DNA from: Amoebophrya sp. A120 | Lineage: Eukaryota > Protista > Dinoflagellata | Reading direction: 5' to 3' | Length of the DNA stretch: 64,000 nt | NCBI GenBank assembly: GCA_905178155.1 | Contig: CAJINV010000021.1 | Location: 483,530 to 547,529 of the forward strand | Shown here: positions 1,001-52,248 of the stretch, one piece after another | How the letters are laid out: each line of letters begins with the position of its first letter | How positions within the stretch are numbered: the stretch's first letter is position 1 | Translations under genes and position numbers: made by a program | The notes under the pieces: model-generated | Database searches by the model: none | Seen by the model: the letters and a program-made list of their open reading frames with translations, nothing else | What the model was told of the DNA's origin: nothing

Positions 1001-1019
1001 TTGGGCACTTTGTCTGCAT

Positions 1020-1240: not shown

Positions 1241-1358
1241 TTGCGGGATACTATTAAATAATGGGTTTTCTGACTTATAACTAGTCATGGTAGAGATTTA
1301 TCAATCGAAATCATTATGGCGCGTTAATTAGTTGTGAAGCGAACATCAAAATAAAAAT

Positions 1359-21798: not shown

Positions 21799-24700
21799 AT
21801 GATGACTAGGGTGGGCCCGCGGTCCACGCGGGTCCTACCCTTGGCGTGGGCCGGCGACGGCGCTCTCAGGACAGTATTGCTCTTCGTCTTCTCTACGTCT
21901 ACCACTGTTACTGCAGACGCGGCCCTGCCAGCCCTCCCCGTCACGATCGATCCGTTGCACTTCCTCGACCATGTTGTGGTTCCTGCCGGAAAGAAACTCT
22001 TGTCCCGGAACAAAACACGACCCGCGAACAAGCGCGAGCCTGGAGATCATGATCCTCGCATCCGCACCCCCACTGCCGCGCGTGCTGCGCTCGCAGCCTT
22101 TCGTGAGAAAGAGGGTAGAACAAGAACAACGAGTGAAACACACGGTAAAAAAATCATCTCCTCAGCCACCTGGTCCTCGATCAAAAATGTCGGCAGTGCA
22201 GCAACACCAGCCCAGACGTCGCCGGACCAAGCCTGGAAAAACCGCGGTGAGATCAATGCCGCTATGGCACGGGCGCTGCAGGCTTTGGATGACAACGCCG
22301 CAGACTGTGTCAACTCGCTCCGCCGGTATCGGGAGGAAAATGTTGGAGCGGACAAGAAAACTCGCTCCAAAACGGCTCTGATTGCCGACATGAACGCGGA
22401 AATGGCCAAGTTGACGCGGGCGCGGCAAAAGGCGGAGAGGCGACTGGAAGAAACCGAGGGGTTGATGAAAAGCGAGGTCACCCGGTTTAGCACGGCGAGA
22501 AAGAAACTGACAGAGGAGCTTACCAGTAGACGACAGGAGCTGAAGGACTTCCAAAAAATGAACCAAACGATAGCGAGTCTGAAGCCGTGCGAGCAGGGAA
22601 ATGAAGCTACGACGGAAGGAGCTGCAGCTCAGTTGCAGATAGAATTCTTGCCGCAAGACAAACACCGAGTAGAAGTAGACGCAGGAATTAATACGGGGAT
22701 CCATCGGGAAAGCAGGAGGAGCGCCAGACATCATCATCAATCTGCTGCTGTCGACGACGCAGCGTTAGAACGGTACTTCAGCACTCCTTTTGATCAGCCG
22801 GCAACATTCGCAGTAGAAGGAGCTGCTGCAGCACCTGTGTCTCTTCTGGAAACCAGCCAGAGTACTATCACTGAGCACCAGAAAACCGCCCCATCAGCGC
22901 TCATGCCCGCGCTTTGCCCCTGTGACGACGGTAGTTCCACTTGCAGTGCCCCCAAGCTGACCGAGCGCTTCGTGCTGCTCTACGGCACCGGAGTTGAGGC
23001 TCTAGAGCAAGTGCACCGAGACCTGGCCGCGCTGGAAAAGAAGAAAGGGAGGCAGATGAACCGGTTAGAGAAGATGAGAAAGGACTTGGAGAGGGAAATC
23101 GTAGACCTGACGAAGGAAAAGGAGGCTACGAAAGACACATTCGAAAAAGCCACGTTGGATAAGAGGGCGGCTGGGATGGTTGCCGCGAAATGGGTATGAT
23201 TTTGATTTGTTTGCTGTTGTTCATAATTTTTTTTGAACGATTCAAATAAGAAGGTCGTGAGACTGAGATGGATTTTCTACGTACCATTCATGCACCCGAA
23301 GAAGTTATGCCGACTACATTCTTTCATCTTCTCACACTCATCACCCCCACTCGCGGCTCACAACCCCCTTTCTTCAGGCGAAGCGTTTCTCCTCGACCGC
23401 CCGAGCGTGCCGGAAAAAGATCGACTCCATTGCCCACCAAGTCCTGCCCGCCCTGAAGTTTTTCCGCTCGCACTTCCACGCCTTGATCAAGGCAAAAGCC
23501 GAGCCCATCCAAGACTGTGTCGTTTCTGGTTTCCAACCAGCCACATCCTGCGCCGCTGCGCCGGGAGATGACGGCAAAACCAAAAGCGCTACATGTTACA
23601 ACAGCACTACGACTGCAAAAGCAGGAACAACTTCCGGCAAAAACACGATCGGCACGAAACTGTGGAAGCGCAACATCCTGACCGCCGCGAGTAATATCAA
23701 ATGCAAAAGTGTCTGGGTCTGGAAGAATGCAACTTGTGATGCTGCTTTGGATGTCTAAAAAATCTGTGTTGCATGAGCAGCAAAAGGATTCATCTAATTT
23801 TTGCTCCGCGGAGAGGGCATTTGTCATGCGGAATAGGCATCAAGAATCCAATCCCTCAAAAAACCTGTGACGCTAGGGCATGCATCACAGACATCATGGC
23901 TCATGCAAACCGTGCATGACAAGTCTCAGAATCTTCCAGACCCAGACACTTTCACTTTTGCATTTGATAAGTAACTTCGGTGTGCAGTGTGGGCCGACGG
24001 AGAAAGCCGTTTCCTGTGACCTTCCCCAGTGCGCGAGGCCCTGCAAGGTCGACGGTTGGTCGTCGTGGTCGAGTTGCGAGGCCGGGTGCAGAGCATCGGT
24101 CGGCACGCCCGGAATGCAGCAGCGGACAAGAAAGTCGCTGGAAGTAGAAGATGAAGAAGCTGGTGAAACAAGAACGTCTTCGTGTCTCCAACAACCTCTC
24201 ACGGAAACCCGCCCGTGTAAGTGCGAAGATGTAGCACTTGGAAAAAAATTCTCCAACGTTGCAAACCCTTGCGCGGTTTCCCCGTGGTCCCGTTGGGGAC
24301 GGTGCTCGAAACGGTGCGTCGCCGCGGCGGCTTCGACTGATGCCGAGAAATTTGGAACCCGCTCACGGACGAGGAGATTGCTACGACCTGAAAATTGCAA
24401 AGACGCAGTCGCCGAAACGCAGTCGCTGGAACCAGTCCTGACTGAAATGGAGGCGTGCACAGCCGCAGCTGCTACATCTTTCGCTGCAGAAGTCACGGAG
24501 CCAATAGAACATCAACCAGACGCGATGCAAATGGTGGATGGAATTTCCCTGGTTTCATCCTCTACAAAAGATCAGACCTGTGCGGCCGATTTACGTTGCG
24601 GCGGCGTCCAGGACCTGCTGGTCGCCGTGCCAAGGCTGGGAAGGAGCGAAGTACGCTTCCTCTCTGAATTGTTCAACCGGTTAGATGACAAGCTGTACGG

Positions 24701-27700
24701 AAATGCCGCGGTCAGAGTCGGGGTCTTGTTTTATGGAAGCGAACTCGTGAGTCAGGCTAGGGAAGTTGTAGACGCCTCTTCTTCTACCTCGGCCGCCGGA
24801 GCTGCTGAAGCGTCTCCTACTACGGGAACGGAACCAGAAACAGAGAGTGAGGATGGAGAATTGAAATCCGCTGTGAAGCTCAGCCCACCAAAAATTGTGG
24901 CTGCGCTCGGCGCCGCCAGCGTGAATGGGACTTTGCAAATGCTGCTCAAAGAGAGTCAGCGGCACCCTCCTTCAACGTCCCAAGACCCCTTCCTTCCAAA
25001 CACCGCGGCGGCGGCGGACGTTGCGGCTTTGGAGTTTGCACAAAACGGCCGCGCCAACGCGCAGCAGACCGTTTTGTTCCTCGTACCTGACTGCGAGAAA
25101 GCCCCCGCCATCTTTCGAAAGCGAGCGACCGAAGCATTGTGGAGGCTGAAGAAGAAACTGCGCGTGCAAGTCGTGGAATTACAACAGGACACGAGTAGTG
25201 GTACAACAACCGGTATCAGCACGCGAGCAAAGAGTTCTTCCTGTCCGGCCAATGAGCAACTGTTCAAAAGTTGGGTTTCGGAACCTGTCGCGGAAAACTT
25301 TGTTTCTATAGTTGCTCCGACTTCCTCGGTTGCGACGAGAAGTCAAGAATCAGTACCGAGTTCCGGCACCATGGCCCTCCTCCTCACGAGCAGCTCCACC
25401 TGTCCCCGCATCTACAGCCCGGTGCAGGAGAAAAAGATCGCCGGTGCCGTCGGTTTTCAGCTGCTTCGCGAACAAGCGGACTGCCGCGAAGCGTTGGGGG
25501 GAAACACGACGGTTCTCGGCGTGTACGAAAGTCGCGTGGCCTGTGCCAAGGCAGTCGTGGCTGTGACGCGGGACGAGAAAGCGAAATTTTCCATGGAAAC
25601 GAAGAAGTTCTGGGTGGCGCCATCAGGAGCTGCGTCAAGAAGTACAACAACTACTTCTCCTGATGTAGAAACGGCCACACAAGGTGAGGGCATTTCTGAA
25701 AATGCTGCCAGCGGTGGGGCAGGGCCGTTTGCAACCCGGGAGCTTGCTACGAGATGTGTGTTGCATCAAGAAGGAGTCACGGACAGCAAAGGAAGTGGTG
25801 CTGCAATAGCATCTGCACCATCTGCAGCTTCTCCGGTGGATTCTTTGAAGTGCAACCGGAAGTCGAGCCCCGATGAACATGATGAGCAAAACTACGAAGA
25901 TCAGGCTTCTTCATCTTCATCTTCCGGGACGACTACAACAAAGATGAACCTGTTCAGCATTGTAAAGAACGAGACGGTGTTTGGCGCCCTGGCGTTTGAC
26001 AAAACTTCCGAGTCACCGTTAAATGCCAACGCCGGAAAGGTTTCGCTGGCGACAGCGGAACAGATTCGTGCGGTCGTCGCTCGCAATAAGAAGTTGGCGG
26101 CAGGAAGAAAAAGTGAAAAGACAGAGGAGGAGAGGTTGCAGGAGAAGGCGTTGCGGGCGGCGAAAGAAAAATTGGAACAGCAAAAGGAAGCCGAAAAATT
26201 GGAACAGCGAAAAGCCTTGGCTGCGGAGAAAGCAAGGCAGAAGGAAGGCGAAGGCGCGAAGCGCGATGCCGCGGCGAAGGCTGAAGCGCTGAAGCGAGAG
26301 CAGGCGGAACGGGCAAAGCAGGAAGCCCTTGCGAAGAAAACGATTGCGGAACGGGTTGAGGCCGAAATGAAGAAAGAGAAAGCCGCGAAAGCAGAGCAAG
26401 CGGCCAAAAAGGCCAGGGAAAAAGCAGCTGCGGAAAAGGAGGCGCAGAAGGAAAAAGAAGCGCAAAAAGCGAAGGAGGCGAAGGAAGCAGAGAGAGCAAA
26501 GGAGGCACGAGAAAAGGCGGAAGCGGCGCAAAGGGCGAAGGAAAAGGAGGCGAGAGAGGCTAAGGAGCGGGCAGACGCAGAGGAAAAGCGAGCTAAGCAG
26601 AAGTTGGTAGCAGCGGAAAAAGCAAAGGAGGCACAGAAGGCAAAAGAAACGGAAGAGAAAGCCGACAAGGCTCGGGCCGCGGAAGTAGCCAAGGCGAAAG
26701 AGGCGGAGAAGGCCAAGGCAATTGCGCAAAAGGCAAAGGAAAAAGAAGCAGCTAAAGCTCGCGCTGCGCAAAAGGCAAAGGAAGCTGCCGATGAAAAAGC
26801 AAAACAAGCTGCAAAAGCCCGGGATCATGAAGCCGAAAAGGCAAAACAGGCCGAGAAAGCCAAAGCCGATGCGCAGAAGGCAAAGGAGGCAGCAGCAAAG
26901 GCGGCAGAAGCAAAGAAGGCTAGAGAACAAGCGGAAGAAGCGGAAGCGGCAAAAGAAGAAGCAGCCGCAGCTGCGCTCAAGGCCAAAGAAGAGCTGGAGG
27001 CAAAGCGAGAAAAGGAAAAACAGGAGGCCGCCGCGAAACAAGAACAGGCCGATCAGGAGCGAGAGAAAGCTGCTGATGCGGAGGCCGCAAAAGAAGTTGC
27101 GGACGCGGACGCAGAGGAGAACGCAGCCGCGGCTGCGGAAGAGGCGGCGGAGAAGAAGTTGGCGGATGAAGCGCTGAAAAAAGCCCGGGAGGCCGAAGCC
27201 GAAGCAGAGAAGTTGAAGCAGCAGGAAAGGAAAACCAAGGCGGATGCGGCGAAGGAAAAGCAGGACCGCTTGAATATGGCGCTCTCACACGTTAATACCT
27301 TGATCGCTGGTGCGTGATGTCGCATTGGTTTAAGATGCTGCAAGAATCACAAAGGCAAAAGCCGGGGTCTTGTTGCGCACCAGCTTTTTGATGCAATACA
27401 TTCATACAAATCCGGCAAAGATTTTGATTTCCAACCTATAAATGTAGCGCACAGTCAGCAAGACTGATTCATGGATGCGAGTCAGGGTCAGCTTGATCAT
27501 GCTCCCGATGTTGGTTACCAGAGGTCGTCGTCATTCTTTTTATCCTGCATGACAAAATAAAATCAAGGAGAAACATATCAACATGTTGTACCAGCGAACA
27601 ACGTAATATTAACGTCTGAAAAACGCCATATTAAGGGACCAGCAGGCCGCGAAAGACCACGAGAAAAAAGCAGTTTCCCGCGCCGTGGAGGCGGAGCGCG

Positions 27701-35339: not shown

Positions 35340-38300
35340 TCATGTTCTCGTCATCAATTGGTGGCAATGCAGGTAATGCTGAAAATCCGTAACAAAATGT
35401 TGCCTTTGGTCGTCCCATCGGGTGCCCAACTTTTTCAGTTTTTCTCGATCCGGCGCAGTCAGCTCGATATTGTATCTGTGATGCGAGTTGTTTGCTGGAT
35501 TGCGATAAAGGAAAACTCATGATCTCATCGGCAGTTTTGCGGGGCGATCGCGGTGCAAAGCATTTTTTAGCGCTGGTTTATCCATTTCTACTCGTCGCCA
35601 TATTCGATGTCAGTGGGAACATGAACAAAGATGCTGAGAGATACACATCAGTACCAATATGTTGCACTCGCGCCGCCGTGTTGGCACAACGGCGCGGCAA
35701 CTTCTTCATAATTGAGGGACCATAGAAACATAGACGAGCTGACTCAAAGGCTTGTAGATTTTGCAGCGTCCGTAGATATGTAGTGCATAGAAGTCCTCGA
35801 GGATGCAGCCCGGGAGACTTTCATGCGCTCCGTCCCTGGTCCACATGCGGTCGGTTGCTTGAAAGGATGAAGCAAACAACCGGCCCAAAGAAAACGCAAA
35901 GTGACTACATTCCATGGGCCCTAGTTTCCGCCGGGGCTACTGACCCAACGCGGCATCAAAAAGCCTCAGTGGCCTAACGGACGGACGACGGGGGGGCAAG
36001 TCGGCTGCGCCGAGTGCCGGGAGCCGGGTCATTTGCGAACGCACCCTGCCAGAGGCATCGCCGTGGCCACGGAGGTAGAAGCAAGCGCACAAGGAAGCGC
36101 AAAACTCAAGAAACGTGGCAGCAGGCGTTGAAGTAGGCGTAGGAGTAGGGGAAGAAGTAGGCGCATTCATAGGCGTAGAAGTAGGCGTAGAAGTAGGCGT
36201 AGCAGTAGGCGTAGGAGTAGGCGTAGAAGTAGGCGTGGAGGCAGGCGTAGCGGTAGGCGTAGGAGTAGGTGTAGAAGTAGGCGCGGAAGTAGGCGTAGCA
36301 GTCGGCGTTCCGGTTGTTGGGGTAGCAGTCGGCGTAGTCGAAGCGGCATCGCGAGGGGCGAGGGGTACAAGAGCAGAGGCCCTACCAAGGGCGTAGCCGT
36401 AGTGGCGCTGCTAGGGGCGAGCGTGCGAGGGAGCAAGGCCCGCCCGTTTTCCTTGCGCATGTTGGGCGGGATGGCGCCGAGGTGACACTGCTGGACGGGG
36501 GGGGCGCAGGGGCGGCGGCCGCGCGCTTTCGAAACTAACAACCGCAGGCCGTGCCCCGAATCTTGCCCGCCCGCGCGGTTGCTGACTAGCGCCGAGGGGG
36601 CGCGCCACCAAGCGAAGCCAGGGAGGGCGGCGCAATGGGTGGCCGGGGCGGGGGGATGGGGGGAGTCGGCCTGCCAGGCAGGGCGCTACCTCCCGGCTTG
36701 CTTTTTTACGAAAGTGCTGCGCCCCACCATTTTTTCCATCCTAGCCGAGACCCTGACCCGGGGCCGCCTCGCCCTTGCTGCTAGCTTGGCTCGGGCGTTT
36801 TGGGCACAGCCACTGACTGGCGCGCTAGCGCTAGCTTCCCCCAGAGCACGGCGCTTGCCCCCTCGCCCGGCCCCGTGGCCCCCCCGGTCGGTGGCCTGAC
36901 CCACCCTGCCCCCGCCCACGCGGGGGAGGGCGGCGGCCGTCTTCTTCCAAAAGACTGGCTGCAGGAGTGCGCCGCCGCTGTCTCCTGGGCGGGCGGCGGA
37001 CAGCAGCGGGCCTCGACCTAGTCGCCGCAAGATAGCGGCAACATGCCCCCGATACGTACCTACGGCTGCGATTTTGGCAGCTACTTGCGCCTGCGTGTCT
37101 GTTTATTGCGTGTGGACGCTTCCTCCACCGCTTTGGCGCAAAGAAGAAAATGGCTGGCGCGGCGGAAAAAAAAAGTGCCCGTGGACGTTCCCGCGCGGGC
37201 GCTAGGGGAGCGGGGCGTAAGGGGCGCAGGCCGGCGGGAACGGGTGCGCCGCGAGAGCAAGATAGAAGGGGCGGCCCGGGGCCTGCCGGGGTCGCAGTCA
37301 CACCCACGGCAGGGAACCAACCTGGGGGCGGTGGGGGTTGTTCGCTAGCTCTCCGAAGGCGGGGCGGGGTGGCTAGGTCTTTGCCGGCAGGGCGCTAGGG
37401 GTATTAGAAGGCGGGCCCCATATGTGCTACCAGGATCAGGAGCAAAAGGCCCCACCAGGGGCAAGAAGTTCTATCAGGCGCAAGATCTGCACGCGCCTGC
37501 CGAGGCGAGATATAGCGTATTGCGATGGAAAAGGGGCGCTAACACTACAAGGAGCAAGAAGTCCTGCAAGGGGCGAGGCGTATGCGCAGGGGCAAGATGT
37601 ACTGCGAGGGGCAAGATGCACTGCGATGGGCAAGATGCACTGCGAGGGGCAAGATGTACTGCGAGGGGCAAGATGTACTGCGAGGGACAAGACCTAACGC
37701 AAAGGGTAAGTAAGAAATGCTGCCAGGGCTAAGGGGCAGGCGCCAGCACGCAGGGGCAAGAGGTTCCACCAGGAGCAGGGCGCACCGCACGGGGGGCGAG
37801 GGGCACTTTCATATTGAAGGGGGCGAGCGGTTCTCTTCTGAGCGAGGGGGCAGGGGCGTCACTGCGTCTAGGGCTCGGGGTATTTTTGTAGCGCCTAGGG
37901 GTTTCTTTGTCGTTCATCGTGCCGAACCCCTACAGCTCAAGCCGTAGAATTTGTCGCAAATATTTTCACAGTAGCACGCATTTTAGCAAAAAAAGTGCGC
38001 GAATATCTGAAAAGCCCTAGAGCCCGAGCCCCAGAAAGGTCCCAGCTTTTGTCGTAATAGCATGCAGGTTCAGCACTTCCAAAATGTCGCGCTTTTTGTG
38101 GTTTTTGATCGTTCCCTACGGCTCGACCTCCATCTTTTGGGCCGACAGCCGTGCGTATTCGCAAATAGGAAAGAAGACCACTTTGAAAAGCCCTAGGGGT
38201 TTGCCCCAGGTTTGCTCCAGGTTGAGCCGCAATTTCTAATGCTGTTTAAGGGTCTCAAAACTTTCCTCTACAGCCTTTGAGCCAAGTTCGTATCAGTCTA

Positions 38301-41300
38301 TAATCTATATAACTAATAGCCGCGTCCGCGGGGGTAGTGAGGTCTAGGCGGTTTTTTTTGTCTTCACGCCAAAAAAACGCGGCCTCTCTGCCCGCCATGC
38401 CGTCGCGAGTAATGTTATGCACGACGGCACGGCGGTCGGCAAAAATCTCGACGCAGAGCTGACCATCATTTCGCTTCGAATCGAAAAATCTTCCCCGCAT
38501 GCTAGGGCCCCACCCGGGCCCCCGCCAGGGTCGGCCCCTTGGGAGCCCCAAATCGGGCCCATAACATGCGGATTGGCTTTTTGCTTTCGGCGAACTTTGC
38601 TTTTTTTGTTTTTTTTGTCAAAATGCCGCATCTTCTGGCCTCAAGTCAGCCTCTGAAATGGCGGATTTTGGTGGCGTCTTTTGCGGGGCCCGAATGTGGG
38701 CCAAAATAAGGCCCATACCATGCGGATTCGCTGCTTTTTTCGGCTTGCTGCTTTTTGCGCGCCCCTTTTTGGGCGCCCCAAACCGCCAGAAACCAAGGCG
38801 GCGGGCGCCTCAGACGGGCGCCCCTTTTGCCGGCTCACCTGCGTCGTTTTATCAAGCGGGACTCGATAGAATTGGCTCGGGCTTGTTTGACAACAAAGCC
38901 CCGGCCGCTTGATAAGTGAAAATCTTTTATGTCCAAAAACACTTCCGTCCGCTTGAAAACTGCCGGTCGTTTTGAAGGTGAGGTGTCAAAAAAACAGCTA
39001 GGATAGAACGTTCGTGACCTCACTACATACCACATTCGTGTCCGCCAAACCATATGATAACAACACATAGACAGGAACGAATTGAAATTGTTCTGTATCG
39101 GTTGTACATGTCCGTTGCGATGTGTTTGATCCGATCGGCGTTCGCGGAGGTGAACACGAGGCCCCAATCCTGGTCGAGACACCACTTGTATGCCACCACC
39201 TCATATCAACTGCAAATAATATGCGGTCTGGGTCCGGATCCGGAACAAGGCTGCAAGTGTTTGCCATGCTGGTTTTGCATAACCCAGTGTTCTGGAACGC
39301 GAGGTCTAGCATCTTCACAAGTCGTGTGAGAGCTTTTCCATGCCAACTCTGCATGAGAAATCCTTTCTCAAGGTGCGTGGCCAAAGACTGACAGCTTTTG
39401 CTAAACACGCATGACAGATTTTTTTGTGACTGCCAGACAGCATCACAGGTCGACACCTTTGTTCCAGACCCGCCAGACGACATATTTGCAATGCATACCT
39501 CGCTACTGGTGTTTCTCGCGGTTGCCAAATCGTACAGACACCGCTTCAGGTCTCGGTTCTTCTCCCACGGGGTGTCGATTGGGGGGTTCCGTTCCAGGTC
39601 GTGGATGTCCTTCAGTCGTAGTCTCTGCCGTTTTCGCTTCTTCCGGTCGCGAGTGTCTTCCGAATCCTCAGAATTCTTCTCCCAGCAATCCTCATCGTCA
39701 TACGGTGGCCCGTATGAGAGTTTGAGTTGTGCACCATTCCGCCTCTACTCAGTTGTAGTGCATGAATCGAATAGCAAGACAAGCGTCGGTGGCAGTTCAT
39801 GAATAACAAGAATGCACGTTTTACAAGAACTTCAACTTCACCACGTTGTAGTGCTGTTTGAAGGGCTGGCAAAAACCTGTTGTGCAAACAATGCCCAGAG
39901 GCTAGCGCTAGCCTAGGAATGGATTCGGTGACTTGTGATCTTGCAGGACTACAAAGGAGGGGGACGAGGGGGGGTTTGTTGTGCAGCGTCATAGCTCGTA
40001 GTCTCGGTCCACGAACGGGTCCTTCTCTGGGTCGGTGTCGATCTGATTTTTCATGTTGGGGGTTGAAAAAAATCTTTGAAACGATATGCGTGTTGACAGT
40101 GGTATAAGATGAAACGTCAACACGAATCTGTGCTCCTCTACTTCTATGTGAAAATTACCTCAAATTGTTCCGACTCCACACTGCTTTCGGCCCCAAACAC
40201 GACCTCCTTCTGCCTTTTTTCTTCCGGCTCAGATTCGGGCCTATGAAATGCAAAAATGTCTGGGTCTGGAAGGATGTAAGTTGTGATGCTACATTTGGAT
40301 TCCAAAAAAATCTGTATTGCATGAGTAGCAAAGGGAATGCAATTTTTGCTACGCTGCGAAGGCATTTGCTATGTGGAATAGGCATCAAGAAGCCCTCAAA
40401 AAATCTGTATTTCTAGGGTATGCATCACAGACATCATGGCTCATGCAAAACGTGCATGACAAGTTTAGAATCTTCCAGACCCAGACATATTTGCAATGCA
40501 TAGGGCCACCGCTCCTTCAATTTCCGCGGGTCCACGTCGAACTCGCCCGGCGGCTGTGGAGTGCAAATATGTCTGGGCCTGGAAGATTGCCAGATTTGTC
40601 TTGTTGCATATTCTGCATGGCCCCCGACGCCTGTAATGCATGATCTAGCATCCGCATCGCAGATCTTGAGAGGGCTTCCTGATGCCTATCCCTATTCTGC
40701 ATGAAAAATGCCTATGCCCTCTCCGCGTAGCACAAACTGGTGACTCCTCTGTCTTGCTGGTCATGCAATACCGGATTTTTTTGGAATCCAAAGACAGCAT
40801 CACAAGTTCCATTCTTTCCACACCCAGACATATTTGCAGGTGATAGCGGCGTCGCCCGCAACGGCCACGCGGCGCCGTAGACGAAGGTTTTTGGGATGAG
40901 GCTGCGATCGTCGCGGAGCCCAAACCACTGGTGGAAGTGTTTGTCGGTTCGTGTGTATCAAATGCGAATATGTCTGGGTCTGGAACAGTGGAACTTCAAC
41001 TTGCGATGCGTGTCTTGCATTTCTAGAAAATCTGTGTTGCATGAGCAGCATCAGAGGAGCTTCCTTTGTCATGCAAAAACGCAACTTGTGACGCGTGCTA
41101 GGCACCAGCAGGCGTCTCAGAAACTTGTCATGCTTGGCTGCACTTGCAAGCGCTTCGATCATGCTCAATTCAGCATCACAGGTTTCCAGACCCAGACATG
41201 AACATGATTGTAGTGCATAGCGTGTTCACCAAAAACTGCGGCTTGCGGAAGTTCTCCAAATCCTGGATGTCCTCTGCGAAAGCATCGCCCTCGTAATAAT

Positions 41301-44110
41301 CGCAGTCATGCATTACAAATCCCCATCCCAAGGTAAATCAGCATGACAAATTGCATTTCTCATGCTGAGCTAATTTTTCATGCGATTTATACTAGTACGA
41401 TACTTTTGCAATGCATACTGGATGTCTAAATGCAAGTGCGCCTCTACCTGGTTACAAACCGGCGCAATCGCGCACCGCAGCTTGTTGTCGAGCGGGGTGG
41501 TGCCAGGTTTTGGCGCTTGCGTATTCGTTTTTTCCTCAAACATGAGGCACTCGATGTCCGACATTGGGAAGTTGCTGAGCCCGATGCTCCGGCACAGGCC
41601 TCTTTTCGCGCACTGCTCCATCCGGGCCCAGGCGCGGCGGAGTTTGCTTTCCCGTTTCTGGTTCGCGTGCCGCATCCGGGATCGGAACAGTTCCAGAGAG
41701 CCGGCTTGCTGGTGTAGTTCGGCAGTAGCTGCTGTCGCTTTATTTGTCCCGTGAAGATTTAGATTATCATCTTCGGGAAAAATAAGATTATCCGCGAGCC
41801 GCTTCGCGTCTTCCTGCAAGGATTTGTCGACGTTGAAGGCTTCAAAGGGACAGTGCAGCAGGTAGAGGTCGACATAGTCGGTCTGGATATCCACTGCAAA
41901 AGTATCGCACTCGTACTAGTTTTGGCGGATATGCATGACAAATCAGCTTCCCAAGGTAAACCAGCATGAGAGCCTCCATTGTTCATGCTGAAAAACTTTG
42001 CAATGCAATTTTTATACCTACTTAATACGGTGCTTGTCATCTTGTGCAATGCATACTGGAGGCGGTCCAGCGACTCGCACAAGGAGCCGAGGATGTCGGC
42101 CTCAATGTCCTGTTCCTCTTGACCCGAGGAGCTGGCGCTCTCTGGAAGTGGGGCCGCTGGCGCACCTGCAGTGCCGGAAACTACTTCCGCTGCAGCCTGT
42201 GCCTCAGCACCCGGCGTCCCATCCGCAGCTTTTTTCTTCTTCGTCGTTGATTTACTTCGACTTGGACCTCCGCTTCGACTGCTGGACGCCGCCGTCGCGT
42301 TGGTCGACTTGGAGGCAACGCTTTTTTTCCCCTTATCACAGGAAAAAAGTGTTACAGTTACACATTGTGATGCAAGACTGACAACAGAGACAACCCTTCT
42401 CATGCAGGAAATGCTTGGGAGCCTCGTTTCCTTCCTGTTTTCCCTTATGATTTGCGCATTACAAGTTTTCCTTGCCACATAGAGAAAATTTGTGATGCAG
42501 AAACTCCAACAAATGTGTAACTGTAGCACTTTTTTCTCGTGATACCCCTCCAACCCCGGCCAGTACTTCGTCGTGAGAAAAATTTCCCTCCGGTCTATCC
42601 CAGTCTTTTATGGCATTCTCAATTGTTACACTCACAACTGTTTTTACACGGATTTGTCATGCAAAATTGCCATCGGCCTCCACGTGATCAAGGTGCTGCG
42701 TATAGCAAACTTTCGAAGGGCTAAGCAGCATGATAATTCGTCCCAAATTTGTCATGCAAAACGCGCAGTTTTCCCGCTTTTCCTTTTGCTGTTCTTGCGT
42801 CACAAATTAATGTAACAGTTGAGAATGAAAGAAACGTTTGAGAACGCCATATCTTTTGTGTCCAACGTTGAATCGCTTCCCCGACGCTCTGCTCTTGTAT
42901 GACAGTGCACAAGTAGAACCCCCACTCATTTGTATAGCATGAAGGGCAATACAAGCATCAGCACTAATTATGCAGGTTCTGCATGACAAATTTACACTGC
43001 AGTGTAGATGTAGTGCTGTTCTTTGGGCAGCTACCAGAACTTGTCATGCATATATAGGGACAGGAGGGACAGTCTGGAGATGGTGTGTTGCATGAGAAAT
43101 GAGGACGAGGGGGAGCAGTTGTGCGCTGTGATATCTTGCCCGTAGAACTCGGCGGTGTCGATGTGCCGGATGCCCGCATCCAGCGCAGCGATTACAGAGG
43201 AAACGAGCTCCTCGTCGATAAAATCCTCCTGACCGTGTTTGGTACCAGTCGCGTCAATAGTGCTCGCACCGCCGCCGTTTCTCGCGTACCGGCCCTGAAT
43301 CCATTTCGTGCCCGTGCCGAACACCAATTTGGGGCAGCGGACGTAATTGCTGAAGTAGAAATGCTGCTTGCGATCCTCGAACCGGCATTGGCGTATCCTA
43401 TGTCAAAACGTCTCCACCCCATAGTCAAGATGGGGAATCGACTAGACAAATCCACAAGCTTTGGCTGTTTCGCATGACAAATTTCAACTCGTGGCGTAGC
43501 GTTGTTTGACCTAGTTCAGCAGCATCATAGATCTAGTTTGTTATGCTGATTGGAACATGACAAATTTCAAAACACGACTGGAAAATGCTTCTCATGGGGC
43601 TCCGCATGAGAAACATTTTCAGCATGCAGATTTGCATTACAACTACTGGGTGGAGACGTTTTTAAATACGATATGGCGGTCTTCCGCGTCATCCACCGGG
43701 TCGGGGTCGCTATCGGGCTCGAGCACCTGGTCCGACAGTATGAACCGTTCAACTGTTACATTCATCTCAAACGTTGCGCTAGAAATTTTTATGCAGACTT
43801 GTGATGCAAAAGGTGCACGATCGTTACAGATCCAGCCTCTTCTCACAGGAGTACGCATGACAAGTTCGCGAACTACACCAAACTGCACTGAAATCCGGAT
43901 AGATCATCTTTATCACAAAAAGCGGAGCAACAGTCTGTGTGTCTCGTCTCATGCTGATCATCACGCAACACAAAATCCAGCCTCGTCTACTGTACCAACG
44001 TTTGAGAATGCGACACTTGAGCAGGTTATAGAGAGCCAGTAGTATTTCAGGTTGCGCAGGGACTCGAGGTACTCATGGTCAGGCTCGTATTTTTGCACCT
44101 CGACCTGCAT
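35340..44110 (-). CDS. Aldo-keto reductase (~663 aa; 15 exons; 12 introners plus 2 canonical introns, 40043-40158 and 35476-39107)
   Basis: Spliced product has AKR motifs in order: PKLVFGTGT, ALDAGIRHIDTAEFYGQEQSVGEAI, REIFLTTKYW, SLDRLQTDYVDLYLLHCP, GLCRSIGLSNF, PVCNQVEAH, AYKWCLDQ..VFTS..RI, DIYNIELTAPDREKL. Spliced length 1992 nt, a multiple of 3. Confidence 0.88.
36115..36340. repeat. Hexamer microsatellite (GTAGGC/GTAGAA/GTAGCA/GTAGGA)n inside the last AKR intron
   Basis: Directly visible; gives artefactual VGVEVG / PTPTST ORFs. Confidence 0.9.
37589..37692. repeat. 19-bp tandem repeat GGGGCAAGATG(T/C)ACTGCGA (about 5 copies)
   Basis: Directly visible; degenerate GGGGCAAGA copies also near 37458 and 37753. 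Confidence 0.9.
39204..39497. mobile_element. Introner, family A
   Basis: TAT..ATA; TSD CCTCA/CCTCG; 299 nt removed gives TSSEVVAYKW. Here the TSD happens to create GT..AG ends. Confidence 0.88.
39713..39993. mobile_element. Introner, family C
   Basis: TATGA..TCATA; TSD GCCCG/GCTCG; 286 nt removed keeps the AKR frame. Confidence 0.8.
40242..40502. mobile_element. Introner, family A
   Basis: TSD GGGCC; 266 nt removed gives KERWPESEPE; interior closely similar to 23695-23969. Confidence 0.92.
40555..40845. mobile_element. Introner, family A (opposite orientation to 40242)
   Basis: TGT..ATA; TSD GCGGC; 296 nt removed gives RATPPGEFD. Confidence 0.9.
40956..41219. mobile_element. Introner, family A
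   Basis: TAT..ATA; TSD GTGTG/GCGTG; 269 nt removed. Confidence 0.85.
41268..41417. mobile_element. Introner, family B
   Basis: TGT..ATA; TSD CTGGA; 155 nt removed gives HLDIQDLENF; same length as 13150-13299. Confidence 0.88.
41888..42055. mobile_element. Introner, family B
   Basis: TAT..ATA; TSD CTGGA; 173 nt removed restores SLDRLQ|TDYVDLYLLH. Confidence 0.93.
42334..42544. mobile_element. Introner, family E
   Basis: ~33-bp TIR TATCACAGGAAAAAAGTGTTACAGTTACACATT; TSD CCCCT; 216 nt removed (in frame, stop-free). Confidence 0.9.
42609..42851. mobile_element. Introner, family D
   Basis: TATGGCATTCTCAA..TTGAGAACGCCATA; TSD TCTTT; 248 nt removed gives TQK|TGIDRREIFLTTK. Confidence 0.92.
42898..43133. 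mobile_element. Introner, family C (TATGACAGTGCACAA TIR)
   Basis: TSD TCTTG; 241 nt removed restores DTAEFYGQ|EQSVGEAI. Confidence 0.93.
43394..43673. mobile_element. Introner, family F (AAAACGTCTCCACCC TIR)
   Basis: TAT..ATA; TSD TGGCG; 285 nt removed. Confidence 0.88.
43739..44030. mobile_element. Introner, D-related (TCTCAAACGTTG/CAACGTTTGAGA)
   Basis: TAT..ATA; TSD GACAG/GAGAG; 297 nt removed links the ATG exon at 44110. Confidence 0.8.
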
Positions 44111-44474
44111 ATTGATGGTCTACTGGATCCTCGTTGTGTGTCTTAGAAGTATTAAAACTGCTTATGCGCTGAGATCGCGGCTGGCGGGTTTGACTTCATT
44201 AGCATCAACGAAGTAATTATTCTTGGGGCTGCTCGTCATCATCTTGTTTGGCATAAACGCAAGAAGTGATGGATACCGAAGGAGATAGGTGTTAAGAAAG
44301 TGAAGCTGGAGATCGTGGGACAAAAACTTGATATGCTCTGCGAGGTTTGTAGTTCGCCTTCGTCTAGCAGAAAAGAAGCAGCACGCCACACCAAAAGTAG
44401 AGTGCACTTCTCTCACGGTCACTTTCTTGTTCTTCTCTCAATGGAATGCGTTTTTCAACAAACAGCCACGACAA

Positions 44475-46164: not shown

Positions 46165-46304
46165 GTTGTTGCCTTGAAGAATGTAAACGTAGAGTGACAA
46201 ACTGAAGCTGTTTACTTCCTATATGAAATTGTTAACCGCGGCTTTCATTGTGCCCTTGGTAGAAGTTCACGTCCTGCTTCTCCATCTCGGGCTTACTACG
46301 ACAG

Positions 46305-46800
46305 CCAAGCTATTCCTATTCGTGTTCCAACTGCTCCCTCAAGCATGTACTATCCAGGTCGCTCAGGCACTATGTCATGGTTATCTGTCCAACCGTTGGA
46401 CTGCAACGTCGCTCAACATCTCTCACAACACATGACTCATGCTCCTGAAACATGATGTTGATCAGTTCAACAACTGATCACGACCAAAAGATGCGCTATG
46501 CTCAAGTTGTAGCCTGAAGAAAAAGTAAAACATAAACGATGAATAAGATTTTTTGTATCGTTTACCTGTCTACCTCAACTTTTACTTTCAGCTTCTCAAT
46601 GTCCACTTGTTTCACTGTAGCTCACGCCAACGACGGCGTCAAGGATTATTAACCTTGTTGCGCGCCGTCGCCATTCTGAGTTTGTCTTGCCGCGTTGAAG
46701 ATCATGATATCCCGCTTAAGCGGCCGACGATCACCGCCAGCAAGAAGTCTTCGTCCCGCTAATATCAGCTTTCTGGATCATCATCGACGGCCAGGAAGTC
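46305..46800 (-). pseudogene. Degenerate 3' remnant of a paralog of the 44833 gene
   Basis: Matches the 3' flank and terminal codons (..QNGDGAQQG*) of the 44833 gene, but frames upstream are broken. Confidence 0.5.
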
Positions 46801-47159
46801 GAGCTTAACAACAGCGCCCGGCTCGTAATATGAAGAGGGTGCATAACTCCACTACTTCCCTTCTAATGTGCTGTCATGCGAGATATTACAATGTTGTGCG
46901 TCCTCTCCAATTGCATGTAGTTATCGCGTTTTCTTGTTTGTGCTTGTTTTGGAGGGTGGTCTACGTCTACGACTACGTAAACGTACGTAGCTGCAGCTTG
47001 CATTTACATGAAAACGAATGACAACCATCAAGAGCACTAGATCTTCATTCCGCGCGCCGTCGTGGGTTTGTAATCATGCAGCGTCAATGTGAAGATAGAA
47101 GAACTTCAACTTCTACCTTATCGCATATTTCTATATATTTGTTTCTGTTGTTGTGAACA

Positions 47160-50100
47160 ATTATGCCTTGTAAGGGCGAGGGAATTTTGCACGCTCGTAT
47201 CGTCCCGTTCTCCGCGTATCTTTCAATTTCGGCTTGCACTCCCCACACATATGCATTGCAAATATGTCACCAGGGTCATCTGGAAATAAGATTGAATGGC
47301 GTCGAGCATGCAAATGACTTTTTTGCATGAGGACAGAAACAGGAATTTGGACAGCTCAGGTTCACTCGCAACAACAAAAAATCTGGAAAAAAGATTGGAG
47401 CTTCAACTTGTGATGCCCTCTCCCAGTCACGCAGAGATCTGGAATCAATGCATGAGTCGCAAAAGCTGGCCACTTTGTTTATTTCTATTTGGCGACAGTG
47501 CGAGATGAGGAATCGTTCTCATTGCCATTTTTAGACCATAAATGGACATTGCAAAGCTGTTGCAGAACTTGTGATGCTGGACTCTGCGTTCATCGTCCAG
47601 ACCTACTGGACCACACAAACTGCGTGACAATAGGATTTTTCCCGAACCAGACATACACATACACGGTCAACACGTATTTGCACTGCATAAAGCACCCCAC
47701 ACTCCCACGTTCCATGTCCCGCTACCCGCATCGGGCCCCAGATCGACTTCTACGCCCCCCACAACATCGTCTCGCTTCCGGACCTTGGTTCCGTTGTAGC
47801 GCTTCTGCGTTTCACGGTTTTCCTATGGAGGAAGCGAAGCGTCAGCGATCGTTCAAAGCCGACAAAGTGAATACGAATAGCGATTTCTTATTCATATTCT
47901 TGTGATGAAGATGCGTATAATTATTTACAAGAAACTACCGATGCCTTTCTTTGCTTTCTTCGACCGTCCATTTCTAATCGTTGCACGACAAATCTGCGGT
48001 TTGTTCCGACAGAAAGGGCGCGAGCTGCTCTGGAGGTGCTCATGCGCTTCAGAAAGAAACAGGTGTCGCCCAATCCGCAGCGCACGCAGGCACAGGACTA
48101 CAAGTACAATCGACCTCACGACTTGCTTCGCTTGCAATATCGATCATTTTTTTTGTTTTTGTATGGCATATTTATTCAGGCAAAAATAAAATTAAAAGCA
48201 CAATAAACTCATTTTCACTCTGCCGAAGGTTCTACACGACGTTGACACAGAGGTATGAGAGTGCACAACTCCCCCTCGTCCCCTCCATTTGTCATGCAAA
48301 ATAGCAAATCCAGTTCCTTTCCAGCCGAGCCTTTTCCCTTTAGCGCTGCTTGTATGACGGGTTCAGGAAGCCGAAACACTAGTACTATCGGTCGCAAAAT
48401 TCCCATGCAAACACTGTATTTTTGCCAGCACGACTTGTGCTCCTGCTGCTTATGCTTTTCAAATGAGGGGGAGGGGGGGTTGTGCACTGTCATAAGACAC
48501 TCCGATCATACACCTGGATGCCCGGGGGAAAAAAAATCCGTCTTAATGTCCTCGTAAAAAAAAGCGAAGCACGTAGACAAACACCAATTGTCGAACGTAA
48601 CTGGGTATGCGTTGCAAAGGTCGTATCGTACTAATAGTAGAAATTGCAATAGTTGTACAAATCTTCCCACAAAAGCAAAAGGTATAAAGTAAAATGGAAT
48701 TCGTACATGCAGAGTTCTTTTCTTTGCATAACAAACACAACAGGATCAGGCATGGGCAACACAAAAAATAAAACAAAAAGATGAAGATCTTCTGTCATGC
48801 AAGACAGGCACGCATAGTCATACAAGTATAAGATACTTTTGCACAGGATCATAATGGCACGCGAACATAGTATCGTTCGATGTCGTGTGGGAGCAGGGGA
48901 TGGCGTTGTTGACAAGAATAGGCGGTGAAATTATGCTGGGCGATGTCGCAGACCATTCGCGTTTCCCATTTTTGGTCCCCGGATTCTTGCATTTTCTTCT
49001 CTATTTCCTGTGTGTAGTGCAGGAGAAATGGGTCAGAATTCGAGGCGCTGTCCCATCGCCCACGCTGCCCGGTTCTGGTGCCGTCTAAGTGCTATGCATT
49101 GCAAATATGTCTGGGTCTGGAAGATTGCTGGTGCAAGTTGTCCTGCTAAATCTGAATCATGCAAAAATCTGTGTCTCATGAGTAGCAAAAGCTGGTGTCC
49201 GCTTTTGACCAAGTTGAGAGGGAGTTGTTTCTCATGCAGGATAGCCACGATAGCGACCTCACAGAATCTGTCATGCTGGGTCCCGCATTCGGCATTCCAG
49301 ACCTCATGGGTCACGTCATGGAAAAACTGTATGACAAGTCGCGCACCCTTCCAGACCCAGACATATTTGCATTTGATAAGTGCACCGCTTGCAGTATAGC
49401 GGTAAAATTGGTATTCGTATTCAGAAATCGCAAATTTTCTTTGCCCCTCCAAGGGCGGCCGGCGACCCAGCTGGATGTGGTGCGGCAGCGACAGGAAGAG
49501 CACTAGACAGGTAAGTTGGCGGAGTTCGGCGACCCTGCTATTTTTAGATGGCATTTTTGGAATGAGTGAATGGCTATCTATTAATGTAGCTAGCTTGTCG
49601 TGGTGTTAGATAGTTCAAAATGTGACTTGCGCTTGTAGATGTGATTCCGCATATCCTGGCGTGTTGCTGCTTTTTCCGGAGCGACGTAGCTGCGCTAGGC
49701 ACTGCGTGTTGGGCACCACTATGGTGCCCAAGGTGGACACCGTGGCGAACCTGCTGCTGGGCCGAGCCGGAGGACCCGTTCTGACTATCTTAGATAGTGA
49801 CCGAACATCTCAAGCGCTATCTATATTTGAACTATCTAGCACCACGACAAGCTTAGCTATTTCATTCGCATTCGCATTCGTCATCAAATAACTTCACTTT
49901 CGAAAACACAGTAAAAAAGGTCGGCGCAGACGACGGTGAAGACGGGGGCGGACGACCTTGGGCGGCAGGTGGAGGAGATTGTTCTGCTGGGCTGGGAGGG
50001 GCCGGAAAATTTTACGAATATTGAATACGAATACCAATTTTCCCGTTATATGCAGGTCCCGAGCGGCGTCCACGGGCCCGAGGCCAAAGCTACCAAGTGC

Positions 50101-52248
50101 AAACGTGTCTGGGTCTAGAAGACTGCCAGGTTTGTCATGCAGATTCTGTATGATCCATGACGTCGCCCCCTGTGTTGCATGATCTAGCATCACAGATTTT
50201 TCGAGGGCTTCCTAATGCGTATCCCGCAAGAAAAATGCCCTCTCCGCGTAGCACAAACTGGACTCCGTCCTGTTACAGCTACTGGTCATGCAATACAGAT
50301 TTTCATTTTTTTGGAATCCAAAGACAGCACTACAAGTTCTGACCTTCCAGACCCCGACATTTTTGCAAGGCGTAAAAACCGGGAATCGTCGACTTGTCGC
50401 TGCTATGACTTGCAAAACTATCGCACTGGGACTGGCAGCAGTGCTGCCAGTGCGGTAGCAAAAACCGCATTGCAAATTAGTTCAAACTCAGCATGACAAA
50501 TGAAATTGTTATGCTGGTTTAATGTACAGTTATTGTTTGTTTGTTCATATTGGACACACGGAATCCGGGTGAAGGTTTTCTTCTCTCGTGTAATGTACAG
50601 TTATTATTATTGGGTACATTCGAAAGTAGGACATCTGTAGTCATGCATGATTTTTTTTTTTCATCTGTCATGCATGAACATGATTGGGATAAAATTTTCA
50701 GTACGAGAACGATGATGCTTTTGTAGTGCATATCTGATAAAATCTGCGCTACTGCGCAAGGACCGATCTACAGCAGCAAGTCTTTCTCTTACCCCAGCCT
50801 GCCGTCGTTCTTCCAGATATCGCGGGTTGGGGCTGAACAGAGAAACCAGCCAGTCTCTCCACGAGACAGGCTGTATGTCTTCCGGGCTGTTGCGTGAGCT
50901 CAGTAACCGAGCGATGATGTTCGGATGCCCGTCTTCCTCCACGCGTGCTTCTATCGCTACCGGTGAATTCCAGGGTACGTAAGAAGGGGTAAAGTTGATC
51001 GCTGGGTAAAAAGGTATGCCAAGTAAACGCAAGCTGCGAGGAGAACACTTGCAGGCAAGGAGATCTCCGACTACTGGTCTGGCCTCGAGTACGTTTCTGG
51101 AGCACCAAAAACCCTTGTCGAAGCACCACTGCCAGTTGCCACGATATGTAGAAAACCGGTTCGCTTGATGTTCTCCACGCGGGGTTTATCCAGAAAAAAA
51201 ACCCCATCCCCATCCAATTTGTGATGCAAAACATGCAGAAGCTGCAGGGTTTGAAATGCAAAAAATGGATGGGGATGGGTGTTTTTTCCTGGATAGGGTT
51301 CGCTTCCTATTTTTTGCCTCCACGGCGCCGGCATTTTTATTTTTCTCGATTGTTGATGCGGGAGGTCCTCGTGGCTTCTTGTTATCACCGATCATATTAT
51401 CGGTCGCGTCCTCCGCTTGCACGAAGGTAGCACGTGCCCCCACTTCGACAGACATAGTACCAGCCGCGGTTCTTTCCGCGTTGTTCTCGACCGTGTCCTC
51501 CTCGCGTGGTTCATATGAAAGCCTCAGGTTGGAAATTAATACTCAAAGTGGGGTAATGCAAAAAAGCGACTCCAGTCGAAGCAGCATTTCTAGCCGGCGC
51601 ATGACAAAGGTCCCGGGCACTCAAAACGTGTCTGCCATGCTAGGTAGGTAAAGGGGTGCCTTTCTCTCGTGCTAATCAGCGGCCCAATTCTGAACCCGTA
51701 GAAGCACAACGAATAGTCGGCCTCCATTGCGTTCTCTGCAATACAGTCTTTTTGGTGTCGCATTTCATCAGGCACCATCACAAATTATTTTCACTTTGAG
51801 AATTTCCATTCTGAGGCTCTCATAGTCCATCTTCGTGACTTCTGGTTCTGTCGGCCGCAACATCGCTGTCACCATTTTGATCATTTTTGCCGCGTAACCG
51901 AGCCCCAACATCTTCGGGGAGAAACAGGCCAGCGATCGAGATGCAGGTGTGCAAATGCGTGGTCAACGCGATGTATCAAATGTAAAAATGTCTGGGTCTG
52001 GAAGAATTCATGTTTGTCATGCTTGTCTGGCATGACTCTTAAATCTGTCATGCACGTTACCCAAGAGCTCCGTTTTTCTGTGATGCAGAAGCGCTGTTTG
52101 TCATGCAGAATAGGCAACACCTAGGAGCTCAGAAACTTGTCATGCTGAGCCAGCATTTGTAGCCTCATCGACCATGAGACGCCACCCAGCATCACAAGTT
52201 TCCAGACCCAGACATTTTTACATTTGATACGATGGGGGGCGACTTCAT
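47160..52248 (-). CDS. Hypothetical protein, possible signal peptide; at least 10 introners (3' end unresolved)
   Basis: From ATG 52248 (MKSPPIALTTHLHTCISIAGLFLPEDVGARLRG) the frame stays open across 8 consecutive introner excisions to ~48585. A likely 71-nt GT-AG intron (48514-48584) and further exons follow. No family recognised. Confidence 0.65.
47250..47689. mobile_element. Introner, family A (degenerate, with insertions)
   Basis: TATGCATTGCAAATA..TATTTGCACTGCATA; TSD ACACA/AAGCA; flanks join in an open frame (WNVGVWG.WGVQAEIEK). Confidence 0.7.
48254..48494. mobile_element. Introner, family C
   Basis: TATGAGAGTGCACAAC..GTTGTGCACTGTCATA; TSD AGAGG/AGACA. Confidence 0.8.
48606..48853. 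mobile_element. Introner, family B (degenerate)
   Basis: TAT..ATA with TGCAAAGG..GTATCGTACT / GATACTTTTGCA; TSD CTGGG/ATGGC; 253 nt removed. Confidence 0.7.
49093..49378. mobile_element. Introner, family A
   Basis: TSD AGTGC; 291 nt removed. Confidence 0.92.
49395..50050. mobile_element. Large introner, family I (~55-bp TIR plus nested internal inverted repeat)
   Basis: TATAGCGGTAAAATTGGTATTCGTATTCA.. / ..TGAATACGAATACCAATTTTCCCGTTATA; TSD TGCAG; 661 nt removed. Confidence 0.9.
50091..50374. mobile_element. Introner, family A with TAC..GTA termini
   Basis: TSD AAAGC/AAAAC; 289 nt removed gives IPGF|GLGPVD. Confidence 0.87.
50404..50732. mobile_element. Introner, family B (degenerate)
   Basis: TATGACTTGCAAAACTATCGCACT..GCTTTTGTAGTGCATA; TSD GCTGC/TCTGA; 334 nt removed. 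Confidence 0.7.
51187..51295. mobile_element. Smallest introner (109 bp), H-related
   Basis: TATCCAG.AAAAAA..CCCATCCCCATCCA TIR; TSD GGGTT; 114 nt removed. Confidence 0.92.
51514..51824. mobile_element. Introner, family G (TATGA.AGCCTCAG..TGGAAATT TIR)
   Basis: TSD GTTCA/GTCCA; 316 nt removed. Confidence 0.88.
51974..52229. mobile_element. Introner, family A
   Basis: Perfect TIR TATCAAATGTAAAAATGTCTGGGTCTGGAA; TSD CGATG; 261 nt removed. Confidence 0.93.

What the first reader, a model, noticed from the sequence alone, without database searches (positions are those of the whole stretch)
23695..50374. Family A introners appear to be excised in either orientation
Seen: copies 23695 (in a + gene) and 40242 (in a - gene) have near-identical interiors in the same genomic orientation. 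Copies 40555 and 50091 are reverse-complemented, and 40242 and 40555 are neighbours in one gene. All restore the frame. Inference: recognition relies on the terminal hairpin or symmetric motifs rather than a polar 5'SS/branch point/3'SS layout.
Basis: partly seen in the sequence, partly recalled or inferred. Interest (0 to 1): 0.75.

Follow-up and report, generated by a model that had tools for sequence, protein, structure and literature searches.

The report
Reversible transposon introns with fixed cut
In a marine parasitic dinoflagellate (Amoebophrya), small transposon copies sit inside genes facing either way and appear to be cut cleanly out of the RNA both ways, likely because both ends carry the same signals and the cuts seem to be measured from those ends; such introns are known, but this cutting rule would help test how the organism splices without normal splice sites.

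Summary
Observation confirmed; the inference is half right. The window is Amoebophrya sp. A120. The copies are its known MITE-like introners: ~35-bp terminal inverted repeats starting TAT, 5-bp target duplication, non-palindromic interior. Eight family copies in the window split 4:4 relative to host strand; in a second assembly 40:31 of 71 callable copies. Removing element plus one duplication restores the frame (41 of 41 in an independent frame test). Lengths of RNA contigs from one run show that opposite-facing neighbours 40242 and 40555 are both absent from the same transcript, while DNA contigs keep elements. No GT-AG or branch-point excess in either orientation. New detail: four contig edges at degenerate duplications (other families of the same type) fit only one register, a cut 1 nt before and 4 nt after the inverted repeat in the direction of transcription (N|UAU...AUA NNNN|). 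So the cut is polar, but both ends supply the same signals, and orientation freedom cannot separate hairpin from motif recognition. Either-orientation introners are in print for Polarella and Aureococcus, with recruited canonical-type sites. Known kind, useful mechanistic handle.

The parts
23695..23969 (+). Family A introner, reads forward in a + host gene (class F); TSD AGTAA; predicted intron 23694-23973 (280 nt)
   Evidence: no RNA laid here
21727..27317 (+). Host gene of 23695: 1709-aa model with canonical intron 23194-23377; a TSP1-like repeat spans the introner junction
39204..39497 (-). Divergent family A copy, class F, in the aldo-keto reductase gene; imperfect TSD; GT-AG only in the -1/+4 register
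   Evidence: junction matches P0001
39713..39993 (-). Other-family TAT..ATA introner; seen as a retained-intron contig whose edges need at least 3 upstream TSD bases kept
   Evidence: table 8 (X3 record 9, 39680-40023)
40043..40158 (-). Canonical GT-AG intron in the same gene
40242..40502 (-). Family A introner, reversed relative to host (class R); TSD GGCCC; predicted intron 40238-40503 (266 nt)
40555..40845 (-). Family A introner, class F, next neighbour of 40242 across a ~52-nt exon; TSD GCCGC; predicted intron 40551-40846 (296 nt)
40956..41219 (-). Family A introner, class R; TSD 4 of 5; RNA-contig depth 0 at 41157
38900..44306 (-). Aldo-keto reductase host gene (P0001; start coordinate approximate) with 12 TAT..ATA introners, including 41268, 41888, 42334, 42609, 42898, 43394, 43739
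   Evidence: 592 residues identical to P0001
46829..47199 (-). Other-family introner with fully degenerate TSD (0 of 5); unique junction 46824|47201 gives exactly -1/+4
   Evidence: table 8 (X3 record 12)
47250..47689 (-). Introner with family-A-like ends; retained contig 47216-47719 needs 4 or 5 upstream TSD bases kept
   Evidence: table 8 (X3 record 13)
49093..49378 (-). Family A introner, class R; TSD GCACT; removed together with 49395-50050 around a micro-exon
   Evidence: table 5c (X3 joint 49092 to 50051, depth 81.8)
50091..50374 (-). Family A introner, class F; ends TAC..GTA; TSD 4 of 5; predicted intron 50087-50375 (289 nt)
   Evidence: matches P0002; no direct RNA row
50404..50732 (-). 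Other-family introner; RNA contig ending at 50734 needs at most 4 upstream TSD bases kept
   Evidence: table 8 (X3 record 15)
51974..52229 (-). Family A introner, class R; perfect TIR and TSD CATCG
   Evidence: (bin depth 23.3 predicted, 23 observed)

Best explanation
These are MITE-like transposon copies with mirror-image ends that sit in coding exons in both orientations and are, as inferred from RNA-contig lengths, removed from the pre-mRNA together with one target duplication, likely by a modified spliceosome that reads only the ends. Shown: structure, both orientations, frame restoration, no canonical sites. Inferred from four contig edges in sister families: the 5' cut falls 1 nt before the inverted repeat (intron starts N-U-A-U) and the 3' cut 4 nt after it, with polarity set by transcription. 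The 1+4 nt equal the 5-bp duplication, so removal is scarless. Predicted, untested: the ~28-bp terminal stem brings the ends together and acts as the ruler for the 3' cut, and the N|UAU start stands in for a GU donor in a system where U1 was not detected. Orientation is free because either end supplies the same signals.
For: RNA-type contig X3 record 10 (1751 nt, 322 nt left of 41418) fits exact removal of ten elements plus one canonical intron. The predicted start is 39994, a 30-nt overlap with record 9; predicted depth in the last bin is 17.5, observed 17.5; retaining any single intron moves the start by 116-947 nt. Own-copy depth inside elements: 0 at 41157, all 43.9 from paralogues at 40412, at most 4.9 at 40813 against 35.7 for the exon contig. 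DNA run X1 holds elements intact (records 1-3, 6, 8; depth 54.5 in bin 49416-49979 where X3 has 0). Annotated proteins P0001 and P0002 agree at all 7 family-A junctions they cover. Second assembly: 40 F and 31 R of 71 (p=0.34); 7 of 12 multi-copy ORFs hold both orientations; frames called separately on each side agree in 41 of 41 (25 F, 16 R). Predicted end pairing is equal by class (28.0 against 28.7 pairs, p=0.27). Register: only k=4 fits all four contig edges (allowed 3-5, 4-5, 1-4, 4); P0002 also needs k of at least 3 at 51514. One junction works with a 0-of-5 TSD, so the repeat itself is not needed. Farhat 2021 report U2, U4, U5 and U6 present and U1 not detected in A120.
Against: No read-level junction table was obtained; RNA evidence comes from contig arithmetic in one run whose RNA status the tool marks as a guess, and it assumes 30-nt contig overlaps (recalled property of 31-mer graphs). 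Only one class F copy (40555) has RNA support. The register rests on four junctions, all in - strand genes and none in family A proper; Farhat's Fig. 3 legend calls splice sites variable relative to the hairpin. No selection for pairing is seen at TIR positions 4-7 (identical at both ends in 22 of 120, against 27.6 shuffled), and the terminal TAT/ATA is predicted unpaired in 40555, 40956 and 50091 (probability at most 0.09). No G excess at +1 (24 of 71 against 20.9) and no branch point found. TIR conservation is equally explained by transposase needs. In-frame flanks are expected of any clean insertion and show splicing only if the gene is still functional.
Confidence: 0.58

Rival explanations
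1. Same end signals and -1/+4 ruler, but the cutting is done by a dedicated non-spliceosomal nuclease and ligase that recognises the terminal stem, as proposed for Euglena nonconventional introns.
For: Euglena's code is also a paired motif with a short 5' spacer and a longer 3' spacer (N3CDG...CH'GN5-6|R), and pairing is required there (PMC12501133). No AG, no pyrimidine tract (0.54-0.55 pyrimidine in the last 25 nt) and no YTRAY here.
Against: Near-invariant U at +2 and the likeness of N|UAUG/C to the window's own canonical donors GTATGA and GTAATT; near-complete spliceosome in A120; Fritillaria's MITE-derived non-canonical introns are ascribed to a U2 spliceosome (title and review passage).
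Confidence: 0.25
2. End motifs alone (TAT, the AAA run, and the mirror-placed GCAT(G/C)ACA / TGT(G/C)ATGC boxes) are bound by proteins that bridge the ends; base pairing is a by-product of the transposon ends.
For: No covariation at TIR positions 4-7; the box lies within 80 nt of the 3' end in 59 of 71 copies and its mirror near the 5' end in 54 of 71; it recurs across families in the window.
Against: A long stem is predicted in all 71 copies (minimum 21 pairs); the boxes are absent near the 3' end in 12 of 71; they may be transposase sites.
Confidence: 0.11
3. Each orientation has its own conventional donor, branch point and acceptor, partly recruited from the target duplication, as in Aureococcus and Polarella.
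For: 40242 can be read GC-AG and 39204 GT-AG in one register; this route is documented for Polarella classes.
Against: 23695, 40555 and 50091 have no canonical pair in any register; GT-AG in 5 of 71 against 3.3 expected; AG at the -1/+4 register in 5 of 71 against 5.4.
Confidence: 0.03
4. One class is not spliced, or elements are removed from DNA (programmed elimination or assembly polymorphism) and not from RNA.
For: Two sister elements appear as retained contigs in X3 (39713 at depth 14; 47250 at depth 8.3); only one class F copy has RNA support.
Against: DNA contigs keep elements at genomic depth; the X3 contig also lacks a canonical intron; class F flanks are intact and in frame in 25 of 25.
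Confidence: 0.03

Closest known systems
Amoebophrya A120 introner elements (Farhat et al. 2021, PMC7789003; catalogued again in PMC12130899)
   Same: Same organism; inverted repeat starting TAT + 7 nt + AAA; 3-5 nt direct repeat; ~240-nt non-canonical introns; hairpin splicing proposed; MITE likeness noted.
   Different: In the sections and passages I read there is no count of orientation relative to host, and splice sites are called variable relative to the hairpin. [quoted passage not shown] Figures were not visible.
Polarella glacialis and Aureococcus anophagefferens introner-like elements (bioRxiv 10.1101/2020.10.14.339549)
   Same: TIR/TSD DNA transposons that make introns in either orientation (Polarella classes 2, 3, 6, 7, 8, 10; Aureococcus as cited there).
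   Different: Those carry or recruit GT/GC/GA and AG sites, which limits usable insertion sites, and show orientation bias. Here no dinucleotide is recruited and no significant bias is seen (40:31).
Euglena nonconventional introns (PMC12501133)
   Same: No GT-AG; paired end motifs; short 5' spacer and longer 3' spacer; MITE origin proposed.
   Different: CAG/CTG motif with N3 and N5-6 spacers and a purine after the cut; pairing tested by knock-in there, untested here; unrelated lineage.
Fritillaria borealis non-canonical introns (seen through review PMC11282704)
   Same: TIR- and TSD-bearing species-specific introns without GT-AG.
   Different: Dominant AG-AC/AG-AT ends; a register giving A-N ends (k=1) is excluded here at 3 of 4 contig-edge sites.

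Membership tests
Amoebophrya A120 introner element (Farhat 2021) | Repeated sequence in the A120 genome | tested here: met
   Host proteins named Amoebophrya sp. A120 at 100% identity; 8 copies in the window; 150 distinct copies in 151 loci of another assembly
Amoebophrya A120 introner element (Farhat 2021) | Terminal inverted repeat starting TAT, seven looser bases, then AAA | tested here: met
   Position counts: T1, A2, T3 and A11-13 in 68-71 of 71 at each end
Amoebophrya A120 introner element (Farhat 2021) | 3-5 nt direct repeat at the boundaries | tested here: met
   5 of 5 match in 108 of 150 and 4 of 5 in 15 of 150
Amoebophrya A120 introner element (Farhat 2021) | Spliced from mRNA with non-GT-AG ends | tested here: met
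   Indirect: contig arithmetic and depths for 5 of 8 window copies; dinucleotides
Polarella/Aureococcus-type either-orientation introner | Introns formed in both orientations | tested here: met
   4:4 in the window; 40:31
Polarella/Aureococcus-type either-orientation introner | Donor and acceptor dinucleotides carried or recruited from the TSD | tested here: not met
   GT-AG in 5 of 71 against 3.3 expected
Euglena-type nonconventional intron | N3CDG...CH'GN5-6|R signature | tested here: not met
   Ends are N|TAT...ATA NNNN
Euglena-type nonconventional intron | End pairing required for excision | not testable with these tools
   Stem predicted; covariation absent at positions 4-7, present at position 14, which may reflect subfamilies
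U2-type spliceosomal intron | Lariat with branch adenosine; dependence on U2/U6 | not testable with these tools
   No YTRAY excess; needs lariat sequencing
MITE (non-autonomous TIR DNA transposon) | Cognate autonomous transposase | not tested
   No whole genome was held

The most novel reading that the evidence does not exclude
Amoebophrya has a sequence-blind, stem-measuring splicing rule: cut 1 nt before and 4 nt after any TAT..ATA inverted repeat, whatever the flanking bases and whichever way the element faces. The 1+4 offset matches the transposon's 5-bp duplication, so every exonic insertion becomes a scarless intron, and the work is done by a U1-less spliceosome or a new nuclease-ligase.
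Probability: 0.45. Interest if true: 0.75.

Novelty: new member of a known kind. Interest (0 to 1): 0.5.

Why it matters
How Amoebophrya removes tens of thousands of non-GT-AG introns with no detected U1 is an open question raised by Farhat et al. A fixed -1/+4 register that does not depend on orientation or on the target duplication would turn it into a testable code: it predicts every junction, tells lariat and circle searches where to look, and explains why these transposons can land anywhere in an exon at little cost. The bare fact of either-orientation intron gain is not new.

Tried and rejected
Raw RNA reads X9 and X10 did not cover the genes (all laid reads partial), and DNA-run joints crowded the joint table, so efficiency by orientation was not measured. 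No listed holder was on record as RNA. The search for the annotated host of 23695 found nothing. TSP1 homologues give only modest support for that junction: 37.8 bits for the exact join, 28-32 for frameshifted joins, 33-34 for joins 3 nt off, 31.9 for retention. An apparent 5'/3' asymmetry in the window (departures from TA only at 3' ends: 40555, 41268, 55082, 30967) was not replicated in 71 other copies (1 and 1) and was dropped; one search also had two ends mis-set by 1-2 nt. My loose TIR/TSD scans give chance hits (5-11 and 41-47 in shuffles), so elements were accepted only with ORF, protein or contig support. Rows dropped before counts: of 150 copies, 27 with TSD under 4 of 5, 3 without an orientation call, 49 without a host call, 77 of 120 fell below the side thresholds and 2 had discordant strands. 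Rfam found nothing credible at 37900-39300. The scan's earlier notes held nothing. Huff et al. 2016 was not held.
Full report
Identity. Two exon queries returned proteins named Amoebophrya sp. A120 at 100% identity. The elements match the published description of A120 introner elements: an inverted repeat beginning TAT, seven looser bases and AAA, with a short direct repeat (PMC7789003 section 11). No whole genome was held.

Observation. The four named copies exist, with 5-bp target duplications. With 40 nt trimmed from each end, 23695 and 40242 align in the same genomic orientation (score 213 against 21) and 40555 and 50091 in the reverse (99-129 against 20-28). The interior is not palindromic (self-reverse 17-24; shuffle maximum 30). 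Identity is 80-84% for the closest pair and about 70% for the reversed pair, so 'near-identical' is too strong. Four more copies (39204, 40956, 49093, 51974) have weaker but consistent orientation scores. Relative to host strand the eight split 4:4.

Hosts and frame. Removing element plus one duplication for ten elements between 40242 and 44030 gives one 509-aa reading frame with aldo-keto reductase motifs. The full model equals the annotated P0001 over 592 residues. The 49093/50091/51974 gene gives a 409-aa frame that agrees with P0002 at those junctions. The 23695 host becomes a 1709-aa + strand frame; a TSP1-like repeat crosses the junction, with modest score support. The annotation is not flawless: P0001 starts inside element 43739.

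RNA evidence (one RNA-type contig run, X3). Record 10 is 1751 nt with 322 nt left of 41418. Exact removal of 41268, 40956, 40555, 40242 and the canonical intron 40043-40158 puts its start at 39994, 30 nt inside record 9, and exact removal of six more elements puts its end at 44306, predicting depth 17.5 in that bin (observed 17.5). Retaining any one intron shifts the start by over 100 nt. Own-copy depth inside 40956, 40242 and 40555 is 0, 0 and at most 4.9, against 35.7 for the exon contig. A listed joint from 49092 to 50051 (depth 81.8) removes 49093 and 49395. Record 15 fits removal of 51974 (23.3 predicted, 23 observed). DNA run X1 keeps elements in contiguous records at genomic depth. So opposite-facing neighbours are absent from one transcript and removal is at RNA level. 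Limits: this is arithmetic, not junction reads; the 30-nt overlap is a recalled property of 31-mer contigs; only one class F copy is covered; contigs drop rare forms.

Larger sample. A pattern scan gave 151 loci of another assembly, holding 150 distinct copies with both anchors, 123 with a duplication of at least 4 of 5. Of 120 with a clear orientation, 71 had a host call: 40 forward, 31 reverse (p=0.34); 7 of 12 multi-copy frames hold both. To avoid circularity, strand and frame were called separately on each side: 43 of 120 passed, 41 agreed in strand, and all 41 were in frame after exact removal (25 forward, 16 reverse; chance one in three). Of the 30 host-called copies whose removed length is a multiple of three, 27 have stops in all three frames.

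Signals. GT-AG is possible in any register for 5 of 71 copies, against 3.3 expected. YTRAY lies near the 3' end in 3 of 71; pyrimidine content is 0.54-0.55; about 28 end-to-end pairs are predicted in both classes and both strands. A GCAT(G/C)ACA box lies near the 3' end in 59 of 71 and its mirror near the 5' end in 54 of 71. Against a strict hairpin: positions 4-7 of the two ends match no more than at random (22 of 120 against 27.6), and the terminal triplet is predicted unpaired in three of eight window copies.

Cut register. Where the two duplication copies differ, contig edges show which copy the mRNA keeps. Record 9 (39680-40023) needs 3-5 upstream bases kept, record 13 (47216-47719) 4-5, the end of record 15 (50734) 1-4, and record 12 (junction 46824|47201, duplication 0 of 5 conserved) exactly 4. 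Only 4 fits all four, and P0002 needs at least 3 at 51514. The intron therefore likely starts 1 nt before TAT and ends 4 nt after ATA. These are sister families, all in - strand genes, so extension to family A and to + genes is inferred. A register tied to the element's own orientation would give 1 about half the time; 1 is excluded at 4 of 4 sites able to exclude it.

Mechanism. The cut is polar but the signals are mirrored, which explains orientation freedom without deciding between pairing and motif reading. I favour a modified spliceosome (0.58): the intron starts N-U-A-U, like the window's canonical donors GTATGA and GTAATT, and A120 keeps U2, U4, U5 and U6 with U1 undetected. A Euglena-like dedicated enzyme (0.25) and motif-only bridging (0.11) remain open. 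Conventional sites per orientation and DNA-level loss are unlikely.

What is in print. Read: PMC7789003 passages, sections 10, 11 and 16, and a term search of its supplement text (figures not seen); bioRxiv 10.1101/2020.10.14.339549 parts 1-2 of 4 (its supplements were not seen); passages of PMC12130899 and PMC9860276 and a term search of 12 of 14 supplements of the former, first hits only; abstract and passages of PMC12501133; passages of PMC11282704 and PMC13326754. Either-orientation intron gain is stated for Polarella and, by citation, Aureococcus. Six searches showed no paper reporting orientation counts or a fixed -1/+4 register for Amoebophrya; subscription papers, figures and unseen supplements could hold them.

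Verdict. A real feature and a member of a known class. The orientation result is expected of inverted-repeat introners but now has support in this organism; the register is the part worth following up. Interest 0.5.

Noticed in passing
window 49592-49853: A 262-nt element with a different inverted repeat (AGCTTGTCGTGGTG) and a perfect TAGCT duplication is nested inside introner 49395-50050; likely a secondary insertion of a family without TAT ends.
   Followed up: partly
window 39713-39993 and 47250-47689: Both appear as retained-intron contigs in X3 (depth 14 and 8.3, beside exon contigs of 35.7 and 54.2), so some introners may be slowly or partly spliced.
   Followed up: partly
window 43739-44030: Annotated P0001 begins inside this element, but contig length and bin depth fit its full removal; likely an annotation error.
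   Followed up: partly
window 13150-13299, 41268-41417, 41888-42055: A second introner family also faces both ways: same genomic orientation in a + host and in a - host (scores 70/35, 41/18).
   Followed up: partly
window 49379-49394: Micro-exon (6 nt between two duplications, 16 nt with both) flanked by two introners and kept in the RNA contig (table 5c).
   Followed up: partly
L001-L151: A few end types (TATCAAAT, TATGCATT, TATGGATT, TATCAAGT, TATCAACT) occur at either end in many combinations, and some recur in other families of the window; ends may be swapped or converted independently of the interior.
   Followed up: partly
window 38951-39030: An 80-nt stretch is multi-copy in the DNA run and is hit by 100-180 RNA reads in each of X9 and X10 that continue into other sequence; no Rfam match. 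Unexplained.
   Followed up: partly
window 35900-38900: GC-rich stretch with 12- and 19-nt tandem repeats at the switch from a block of + genes to a block of - genes; introners are sparse in the + block (4 seen) and dense in the - block (about 26).
   Followed up: no
window 1-1300: Arrays of 8-, 13- and 19-nt tandem repeats at the window start.
   Followed up: no
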